Source: Escherichia coli | Lineage (GTDB): Bacteria; Pseudomonadota; Gammaproteobacteria; Enterobacterales; Enterobacteriaceae | Length of the DNA: 64,000 nt | Direction: 5' to 3' (one strand) | Assembly (NCBI RefSeq): GCF_003334815.1 | Contig: NZ_QOWO01000012.1 | Shown here: in pieces, positions 48,100 through 48,342 of the stretch | Position numbering within the stretch: position 1 is the first letter of the stretch | How the letters are laid out: each line of letters starts with the position of its first letter | Translations under genes and position numbers: made by a program | Notes under the pieces: generated by a model | What the model saw: the letters and a program-made list of their open reading frames with translations, nothing else | The model's database searches: none | Told to the model about the DNA's origin: nothing

Positions 48100-48168
48100 G
48101 TGTTTTAGTTGCCGTGGAAACTTTTCGCCTGTCTCTGGCAGGCCTGGGATCGGTGGCAAGCACATCAC

Positions 48169-48227
48169 GCCGGATGCGACGCAAATGCGTCTTATCCGGC
48201 CTACACGGTGATGATGTGGTAGGCCGG
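48169..48227. repeat. REP element in the glnA 3' UTR
   Basis: cgccggatgcgacgcaaatgcgtcttatccggcctac ... gtaggccgg. Confidence 0.85.
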
Positions 48228-48272
48228 AGCAGGTGAGTCGCTCTCCAACGTGAAGTTTGTCAGCTATCTGTA

Positions 48273-48298
48273 GCCCATCTCTGCATGGGCTTTTTTCT
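48273..48298 (+). terminator. Intrinsic terminator after glnA
   Basis: agcccat-ctctgc-atgggct followed by a T6 run. Confidence 0.85.
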
Positions 48299-48342
48299 CC
48301 GTCAATTCTCTGATGCTTCGCGCTTTTTATCCGTAAAAAGCT

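What the first reader, a model, noticed from the sequence alone, without database searches (positions are those of the whole stretch)
48100..48300. Structured glnA 3' UTR (REP plus strong terminator) as a candidate 3'-UTR-derived sRNA
The roughly 200 nt between the glnA stop and the terminator (48273..48298) contain a REP palindrome (48169..48227) and end in a strong hairpin plus U-tract. That is the typical layout of 3'-UTR-derived regulatory RNAs released by RNase E processing. I recall reports of a GlnZ-type sRNA from glnA 3' UTRs in enterobacteria, but cannot verify from sequence which segment would be the seed.
Basis: inference. Interest (0 to 1): 0.35.

Follow-up and report, generated by a model that had tools for sequence, protein, structure and literature searches.

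The report
Known sRNA GlnZ, K-12 allele

Summary
glnA ends at 48099. A canonical REP lies at 48169..48204, with an inverted partial arm at 48219..48231. A 7-bp hairpin plus T6 terminator lies at 48272..48297. Window 48103..48296 is 194/194 identical to ncRNA glnZ (b4836) in the E. coli K-12 MG1655 reference. Two 2022 studies (Walling et al.; Miyakoshi et al.) showed GlnZ is released from the NtrC/sigma54-driven glnA mRNA by RNase E, needs Hfq, and represses sucA, glnP and aceE by base pairing.

One correction is needed. In this K-12-type (Class III) allele the seed UUGCCGUGGAAA is at 48109..48120, 10 nt after the stop codon. A 151-nt REP-bearing, mostly double-stranded insert separates the seed from the terminator.

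My own additions are these. 1571 of 5426 complete E. coli genomes carry this allele and 3852 carry the O157/O111 types. The three types share only the seed block, the terminator and the downstream glnL promoter region. The seed region is predicted accessible and pairs with the sucA, glnP and aceE leaders (-18 to -21 kcal/mol). Verdict: real, ordinary, already known.

The parts
46469..46517 (+). Two NtrC-binding-site-like palindromes upstream of glnA (46469..46485 and 46501..46517). They provide the transcriptional input that ultimately drives GlnZ.
   Evidence: The TGCAC-N6-GGTGCA scan gave 5 matches (3 sites) against 1.4 expected. GlnZ is lost in ntrC and PglnA deletion strains (Walling et al.).
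46591..46606 (+). glnAp2, a sigma54-type -24/-12 promoter element (TGGCACAGATTTCGCT).
   Evidence: Pattern match with 1 mismatch. The window-wide count is not above chance, so assigning it to glnAp2 rests on position and on established knowledge of glnA.
46690..48099 (+). glnA coding sequence (glutamine synthetase, 469 aa). This is the parental mRNA of GlnZ.
   Evidence: ORF. Annotated as glnA in all matching E. coli records.
48074..48078 (+). Upstream RNase E-like site (AG|UUU) inside the last glnA codons. It is a candidate origin of the longer precursor (published as GlnZ+30 and the ~213-nt species).
   Evidence: RN|WUU motif scan. Miyakoshi et al. mapped two RNase E sites flanking the stop codon by mutagenesis. 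Matching their site to this exact motif is my inference.
48103..48296 (+). GlnZ sRNA, the major 194-nt form (GlnZ194).
   Evidence: 194/194 identical to ncRNA glnZ b4836 of NC_000913.3, 4056428..4056621 minus strand. An RN|WUU motif predicts a 5' end at 48104, 1 nt from the annotated 48103.
48109..48120 (+). Seed UUGCCGUGGAAA. The functional seed region spans about 48103..48123.
   Evidence: Single exact match in the window. The seed sequence is defined in PMC9731577. It is invariant in all three E. coli UTR types. Mean unpaired probability is 0.68, against 0.38 for the whole RNA. It pairs with the sucA, glnP and aceE leaders.
48120..48124 (+). RNase E-like site (AC|UUU) in the U-rich stretch before hairpin 1. 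Cleavage here gives the seedless, inactive ~174-nt form.
   Evidence: The motif predicts a 5' end at 48122. The published 174-nt length puts it at 48123. GlnZ174 does not repress SucA (Walling et al.).
48127..48143 (+). Small hairpin GCCUGUCUCUGGCAGGC (7 bp).
   Evidence: Present in the MFE and centroid folds. Mean unpaired probability is 0.19. It matches the first stem-loop described by structure probing.
48147..48269 (+). Long imperfect stem-loop built around the REP. It is the RNase III-sensitive double-stranded body of K-12-type GlnZ.
   Evidence: MFE and centroid folds. In vitro RNase III/T1 probing is reported by Walling et al..
48169..48204 (+). Canonical REP (repetitive extragenic palindrome) unit.
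   Evidence: Strict REP pattern, 5 copies in the window against 0 expected. Sub-threshold naRNA4 (REP-derived) Rfam hit at 48141..48201, 30.4 bits against a gathering score of 59.5.
48219..48231 (-). Inverted partial REP tail (GTAGGCCGGAGCA on the + strand). It pairs with 48195..48204.
48272..48297 (+). Rho-independent terminator (7-bp stem, 6-nt loop, U6). It forms the GlnZ 3' end and the presumed Hfq-binding module.
   Evidence: Terminator scan. Identical in all three UTR types. The Term-seq 3' end is cited by Walling et al..

Best explanation
Window 48103..48296 (+) is GlnZ, the Hfq-dependent sRNA derived from the glnA 3' UTR, in its E. coli K-12-type (Class III, 197-nt UTR) form.

Mechanism:
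1. Under nitrogen limitation, NtrC and sigma54 drive glnA transcription from glnAp2. The transcript ends at the intrinsic terminator at 48272..48297.
2. [quoted passage not shown]
3. The accessible 5'-proximal seed (UUGCCGUGGAAA, 48109..48120) pairs with the leaders of sucA (2-oxoglutarate dehydrogenase E1o), glnP (glutamine ABC transporter) and aceE, and represses them. This steers 2-oxoglutarate towards glutamate/glutamine synthesis.
4. Further cleavage in the U-rich stretch at about 48122/3 removes the seed and gives the inactive 174-nt form.
5. The 151-nt REP-containing insert folds into hairpins. This keeps the seed structurally close to the terminator and makes the RNA an RNase III substrate.

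What is shown and what is inferred: steps 1-4 were shown experimentally, in K-12, on a sequence identical to this one. That they hold in this particular strain is inferred from sequence identity.
For: - Sequence identity: 194/194 to the annotated glnZ b4836. The surrounding 10 kb differs from MG1655 at only 2 positions.
- The seed is present once, at nt 10-21 after the stop codon, as published.
- The UTR lengths I measured in the three E. coli alleles (197, 85 and 230 nt) equal the published ones.
- Only the seed block (TTTAGTTGCCGTGGAAA), the terminator and the 88-nt downstream glnL promoter region are shared among the alleles.
- Predicted structure is z = -3.83, with hairpin 1, the long REP stem and the terminator. 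The seed is mostly unpaired.
- RN|WUU motifs predict 5' ends at 48104 and 48122, each 1 nt from the ends implied by the published 194- and 174-nt species.
- Seed-target duplexes:
  - sucA: -20.5 kcal/mol, site ending 26 nt upstream of the AUG.
  - glnP: -18.4 kcal/mol, site ending 10 nt upstream.
  - aceE: -20.9 kcal/mol, site 90-104 nt upstream, covering the published C-99 position.
  - Each is matched by only 3-13 of 500 shuffled seeds.
- Experiments in the papers:
  - Northern blots and NtrC/PglnA dependence.
  - RNase E and Hfq dependence.
  - RNase E-site mutants abolish both processing and SucA repression.
  - Compensatory mutations validate the pairing.
  - RIL-seq in N-starved cells.
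Against: No result contradicts it.

Caveats:
- Rfam 15 gave no GlnZ family hit here, so there is no independent covariance-model confirmation.
- The duplex statistics are modest (p about 0.01-0.03 against mononucleotide-shuffled seeds), and the target sequences came from MG1655, not from the window.
- The exact cleavage nucleotides are inferred from published lengths and a degenerate motif.
- The window's strain is not strictly MG1655 (2 SNPs in 10 kb), so its expression was not directly measured.
Confidence: 0.97

Rival explanations
1. The UTR is only a passive cis element. REP plus terminator would protect glnA mRNA from 3' exonucleases and set the ratio of termination to read-through into glnLG, with no trans-acting function.
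For: REPs and terminator hairpins are classical 3' stabilisers (established knowledge). Deleting the terminator slightly lowers GlnA (PMC9731577). The REP insert is absent from about 71% of E. coli genomes, so it is dispensable.
Against: Trans repression of sucA, glnP and aceE was validated by compensatory mutations. Deleting the UTR while keeping the terminator changes neither GlnA nor NtrC levels. The seed is invariant across otherwise unrelated UTR alleles. A cis stabilising role for the terminator can coexist with the sRNA function, but it cannot be the whole explanation.
Confidence: 0.02
2. GlnZ is mainly a primary transcript from a promoter inside the glnA coding sequence (the 213-nt species, 5' end near 48084), not a processing product.
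For: dRNA-seq suggested an internal TSS that would give a 213-nt RNA (Walling et al.).
Against: - A PglnZ-lacZ fusion has minimal activity, and GlnZ disappears when the upstream glnA promoter is deleted.
- No GlnZ is made from pBAD-glnA without arabinose.
- No sigma70-like promoter was found in 47900..48500 by the consensus scan.
- The 213-nt band is visible only on long exposure.
Confidence: 0.04
3. The RNA is a REP-derived nucleoid-associated RNA of the naRNA4 (REP325/CssrE) kind and acts through HU binding.
For: Rfam naRNA4 matches 48141..48201 on both strands at E = 0.006 and 0.046.
Against: The score is 30.4 bits against a gathering threshold of 59.5. True BIME-type copies elsewhere in the window score 75-79 bits. 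The match covers only the single REP hairpin. The element here is one REP plus a truncated inverted arm, not the REP325 unit.
Confidence: 0.02
4. The region encodes a small protein (mechanical ORFs 48077..48211, 44 aa, TTG start; 48114..48236, 40 aa, GTG start).
For: The ORFs exist mechanically.
Against: Both use non-ATG starts and run through the REP palindrome. Both are absent from the 71% of genomes lacking the insert. Neither is annotated in any record. ORFs of this size are expected by chance.
Confidence: 0.01

Closest known systems
GlnZ of E. coli K-12 MG1655 (ncRNA glnZ, b4836; Walling et al. 2022; Miyakoshi et al. 2022; first seen as a glnA 3'-UTR RNA in the 2005 Kawano et al. screen that Walling et al. 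cite)
   Same: Everything matches: identical 194-nt sequence, position 4 nt after the glnA stop codon, seed, REP insert and terminator.
   Different: Nothing within the sRNA differs. The surrounding 10 kb has 2 SNPs relative to MG1655.
EsrF / O157-type GlnZ (Class I, 85-nt glnA 3' UTR; Jia et al. 2021, PMC8092317)
   Same: Same locus, same seed block TTTAGTTGCCGTGGAAACTTT, same terminator and same downstream 88 nt. It represses the same E. coli targets.
   Different: - The seed lies 5 nt from the terminator and 43 nt from the stop codon.
- It carries a small 5' hairpin (CCCGGCG...CGCCGGG) that the K-12 type lacks.
- It has no REP insert.
- Together with the O111 type it is the majority form, 3852 of 5426 genomes.
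O111-type GlnZ (230-nt UTR) and Salmonella GlnZ (Class II, 185-nt UTR)
   Same: glnA 3' UTR origin, the conserved seed next to the terminator, and RNase E/Hfq-dependent release.
   Different: The extra sequence lies upstream of the seed. In the O111 type it is bounded by AGGTTCAAA direct repeats at UTR positions 37 and 144. In the K-12 type the extra sequence is a REP between the seed and the terminator.
Other RNase E-released 3'-UTR sRNAs (for example SdhX and SroC, both named in the papers read; CpxQ from my own knowledge)
   Same: Type II biogenesis (processing from the parental mRNA), a terminator shared with the mRNA, and Hfq dependence.
   Different: In these sRNAs the seed is usually close to the terminator in a short RNA. 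K-12 GlnZ has a 151-nt structured REP spacer and shows RNase III sensitivity.

Membership tests
GlnZ (glnA 3'-UTR-derived sRNA) | Lies immediately downstream of, and on the same strand as, the glnA coding sequence, upstream of glnL. | tested here: met
   glnA is 46690..48099 (+) and glnL is 48385..49434 (+). The annotations agree.
GlnZ (glnA 3'-UTR-derived sRNA) | Conserved seed 5'-UUGCCGUGGAAA-3'. | tested here: met
   Exact match at 48109..48120. It is invariant in the K-12, O157 and O111 alleles.
GlnZ (glnA 3'-UTR-derived sRNA) | Conserved Rho-independent terminator AGCCCAUCUCUGCAUGGGCU followed by a U tract at the 3' end. | tested here: met
   48272..48297. Identical across the alleles.
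GlnZ (glnA 3'-UTR-derived sRNA) | Sequence identity to the curated glnZ gene (b4836). | tested here: met
   194/194 identical.
GlnZ (glnA 3'-UTR-derived sRNA) | Seed complementarity to the sucA and glnP (and, in E. coli, aceE) leaders at the published sites. | tested here: met
   RNAduplex gave -20.5, -18.4 and -20.9 kcal/mol. Only 9, 13 and 3 of 500 shuffled seeds did as well. The aceE site spans -90..-104 and so includes C-99. The target sequences came from MG1655, because the window does not contain them.
GlnZ (glnA 3'-UTR-derived sRNA) | Release from glnA mRNA by RNase E; stable ~194-nt species induced by nitrogen limitation. | not testable with these tools
   Only motif-level support here: RN|WUU sites predict 5' ends at 48104 and 48122.
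GlnZ (glnA 3'-UTR-derived sRNA) | Hfq binding or dependence. | not testable with these tools
   A terminator with a U tract is present. Hfq dependence and RIL-seq data come from the literature.
GlnZ Class III / K-12 type | [quoted passage not shown] | tested here: met
   The seed occupies nt 10-21 of the UTR, the gap to the terminator stem is 151 nt, and the UTR is 197 nt. The REP is at 48169..48204.
REP (repetitive extragenic palindrome) | About 35-nt imperfect palindrome GCCGGATGCG..CG..CTTATCCGGCCTAC, extragenic and dispersed in many copies. | tested here: met
   5 strict and 17 relaxed copies in the window, against 0 and 0.9 expected. The arms are 87% complementary. Partial matches to the insert occur at a median of 2 places per genome.
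naRNA4 / REP325 (Rfam RF02564) | Score at or above the Rfam gathering threshold over the 77-nt two-hairpin model. | tested here: not met
   30.4 and 26.6 bits against a threshold of 59.5. Not listed in the gathering-threshold scan.

The most novel reading that the evidence does not exclude
The K-12-specific 151-nt REP-bearing spacer (48121..48271) may not be a neutral passenger. It could give this allele properties the Class I and II alleles lack, such as RNase III-gated or glutamine-responsive turnover, or a changed target range. That would make the 29% versus 71% split of E. coli genomes a functional polymorphism in nitrogen/carbon control. The evidence does not exclude this. The insert occurs at full length once per genome in exactly the 1571 genomes, at >=99% identity in 1570 of them. 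Walling et al. report RNase III effects whose mediating factor is unidentified.
Probability: 0.15. Interest if true: 0.3.

Novelty: already known. Interest (0 to 1): 0.07.

Why it matters
GlnZ shows how a single mRNA can both encode the key nitrogen-assimilation enzyme and, after RNase E processing, send a trans-acting signal. That signal throttles the TCA-cycle drain on 2-oxoglutarate (sucA) and glutamine transport (glnP). For this scan the value is calibration. The first-stage reader inferred a real, experimentally validated sRNA from sequence layout alone. The practical lesson is that seed position cannot be assumed to be terminator-proximal, because here a REP insertion has displaced it 151 nt upstream. 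No new biology follows from this window.

Tried and rejected
- Rfam 15 at a permissive E-value over 46300..48600, and at gathering thresholds over the whole window, gave no GlnZ family match in the UTR. The only hit there was a sub-threshold REP (naRNA4) match. Covariance-model confirmation was therefore not possible.
- The first MAFFT alignment of the K-12 and O157-type UTRs misaligned the seed, because the alleles are rearranged rather than colinear. I replaced it with module-anchored comparison.
- My first NtrC-site pattern used the wrong spacing (7 N) and returned only chance matches. The corrected 6-N pattern found the expected sites.
- The sigma54 pattern count across the window is not above chance. 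Assigning 46591..46606 to glnAp2 rests on position and prior knowledge.
- I checked whether the 151-nt insert belongs to a larger dispersed element. It does not. Only the REP core recurs, and the full insert is single-copy.
- I decided against spending the one genome-contig scan on cross-species seed conservation. Both papers already document it, and the three E. coli alleles gave the same answer cheaply.
- I rejected a small-ORF coding reading and an internal-promoter origin (see the rival explanations).

Full report
**1. Observation**

The window around the finding is the enterobacterial typA / glnA-glnL-glnG locus. glnA is the 469-aa ORF 46690..48099 (+), with its stop codon at 48097..48099, and glnL starts at 48385.

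- A canonical REP, GCCGGATGCGACGCAAATGCGTCTTATCCGGCCTAC, lies at 48169..48204. It is one of five strict REP matches in the window, with none expected in shuffles.
- An inverted partial REP tail lies at 48219..48231. It forms a perfect 10-bp inverted repeat with 48195..48204.
- An intrinsic-terminator-like hairpin lies at 48272..48291 (7 pairs, 4 G-C, 6-nt loop), followed by T6 at 48292..48297.
- The UTR from the stop codon to the end of the T run is 197 nt.

As RNA, 48103..48297 folds at -81 kcal/mol against -64.5 +/- 4.3 for dinucleotide shuffles (z = -3.83).

**2. What it is**

The 8-kb neighbourhood matches K-12 laboratory strains at essentially 100%. The curated MG1655 record NC_000913.3 annotates 'ncRNA glnZ, b4836, small regulatory RNA GlnZ' at 4056428..4056621 on the minus strand, beginning 4 nt after the glnA stop. 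This maps to window 48103..48296 and is 194/194 identical. The surrounding 10 kb differs from MG1655 at only two positions, 44279 and 44771. So the feature is the known sRNA GlnZ.

**3. How it works**

These steps are taken from experiments on the identical sequence.

From Walling et al. (bioRxiv 10.1101/2022.04.01.486790):
- The major species is about 194 nt, with minor ~174 and ~150-nt species, all induced by nitrogen starvation.
- Expression depends on NtrC and on the upstream glnA promoter. A putative internal promoter has negligible activity.
- The RNA is largely double-stranded, is cleaved by RNase III, and contains an internal REP.
- It represses glnP and sucA through a seed lying between the 194-nt and 174-nt 5' ends, so GlnZ174 is inactive.

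From Miyakoshi et al. (eLife 2022, PMC9731577):
[quoted passage not shown] Pairing with sucA and aceE was validated by compensatory mutations, including G12C.
- Mutating the two RNase E sites flanking the stop codon abolishes both release and SucA repression.

A later RIL-seq study in N-starved cells recovered the GlnZ regulon and added nac as a possible target (PMC10954441).

**4. My mapping and tests**

- Seed location: the seed occurs once in the window, at 48109..48120. G48111 is the published G12.
- Cleavage sites: RN|WUU motifs predict 5' ends at 48076, 48104 and 48122. The published lengths put the ends at 48103 (194 nt) and 48123 (174 nt).
- Structure: the predicted fold has a weak 4-bp helix across the seed, a 7-bp hairpin at 48127..48143, a long imperfect stem at 48147..48269 built around the REP, and the terminator.
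- Accessibility: mean unpaired probability is 0.68 for the seed, 0.19 for hairpin 1 and 0.30 for the long stem. This fits the published argument that the folded insert keeps the seed accessible and near the terminator.
- Target pairing: using MG1655 target leaders, the 23-nt seed region forms three duplexes.
  - sucA: -20.5 kcal/mol, site ending 26 nt upstream of the AUG.
  - glnP: -18.4 kcal/mol, site ending 10 nt upstream, that is just before the SD.
  - aceE: -20.9 kcal/mol, site at -90..-104, covering C-99.
  - Only 9, 13 and 3 of 500 shuffled seeds, respectively, did as well.
- Upstream control: the expected elements are present. NtrC-type palindromes lie at 46469..46485 and 46501..46517, and the -24/-12 element TGGCACAGATTTCGCT lies at 46591..46606.

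**5. Population context (computed here)**

Only 1571 of 5426 complete E. coli genomes carry this UTR at full length. Another 3852 carry the O157-type sequence, either contiguous or split by the O111-type insertion. Together these account for 5423 of 5426.

Anchoring on modules gives UTR lengths of 197 nt (K-12 type), 85 nt (O157 type, SE15) and 230 nt (O111 type, UTAK-12). These are exactly the published lengths. The three alleles share only three parts: the block TTTAGTTGCCGTGGAAA(C)TTT, the terminator, and the identical 88 nt downstream.

The seed-to-terminator gap is 151 nt in the K-12 type, and 5 nt (O157 type) and 4 nt (O111 type) in the others. The 151-nt insert is single-copy. It is found at full length in exactly the same 1571 genomes, at >=99% identity in 1570. 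Only its REP core recurs elsewhere.

**6.

One correction is needed. The proposed target prediction with 'the terminator-proximal 60 nt' would miss the seed in this allele. That region (about 48237..48296) is the 3' strand of the long stem plus the terminator.

**7. Rivals**

- A purely cis stabiliser/terminator role is excluded as the sole function by the compensatory-mutation data. It is also excluded because deleting the UTR while keeping the terminator leaves GlnA and NtrC unchanged.
- An internal-promoter origin is contradicted, and by the absence of a sigma70-like site.
- naRNA4 membership fails the Rfam threshold (30.4 against 59.5 bits).
- The 40-44-aa mechanical ORFs have no support.

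**8. Novelty and score**

This is already known, annotated in the reference genome and mechanistically characterised. Interest is low.

The only reading with residual novelty is that the REP spacer confers allele-specific behaviour, such as RNase III- or glutamine-linked turnover or a changed target range. The published work leaves this partly open. I put it at about 0.15 probability and of modest interest.

Noticed in passing
window 46399..46506 (-): Full-length Rfam ES222 sRNA match (135 bits against a gathering score of 62) in the typA-glnA divergent intergenic region. It lies 82 nt upstream of the typA/bipA start (46317). It is antisense to, and overlaps, the NtrC-binding palindromes of the glnA promoter (46469..46517). 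It may simply be the typA 5' leader.
   Followed up: partly
window 44441..44509 (-): Rfam STnc370 match just above threshold (55.6 bits against 54), straddling the typA stop codon (typA ORF ends at 44494). This is a second possible 3'-end-derived sRNA in the neighbourhood.
   Followed up: no
window 48342..48363 (+): A perfect NtrC palindrome, TGCACTAAAATGGTGCA (48347..48363), abuts a TATAAT hexamer (48342..48347) between the GlnZ terminator and the glnL ATG. This fits the classical NtrC-repressed glnL promoter. The 88 nt downstream of the terminator are identical in all three UTR alleles.
   Followed up: partly
L002 (NZ_CP178656.1) 689..719; compare window 48272..48297: Some O157-type strains (for example VTB96929v) carry a 6-nt TCTCTG duplication inside the GlnZ terminator loop, which enlarges the loop from 6 to 12 nt. 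Its effect on termination or Hfq binding is unknown, and I did not count how many genomes have it.
   Followed up: no
window 53435..53688 (-), 54717..54835 (-), 19484..19542 (+): Known RNA elements found by Rfam at gathering thresholds: CsrC (276 bits), Spot 42 (123 bits) and a SECIS_3 selenocysteine insertion element (84 bits, presumably in a formate dehydrogenase gene).
   Followed up: no
window 1321..1398, 10191..10408, 24623..24704, 41131..41193, 51111..51194: REP/BIME clusters. Four of them score above threshold as naRNA4 (75-79 bits). In contrast, the single REP inside GlnZ scores only 30 bits.
   Followed up: partly
window 44279 and 44771: These are the only two differences from MG1655 across the 10 kb compared (window 42724..52724). 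The source is therefore a very close K-12-like strain but not identical to NC_000913.3. Several otherwise identical genomes carry an IS4 insertion somewhere within the 44000..52000 equivalent (hits H22-H26).
   Followed up: no
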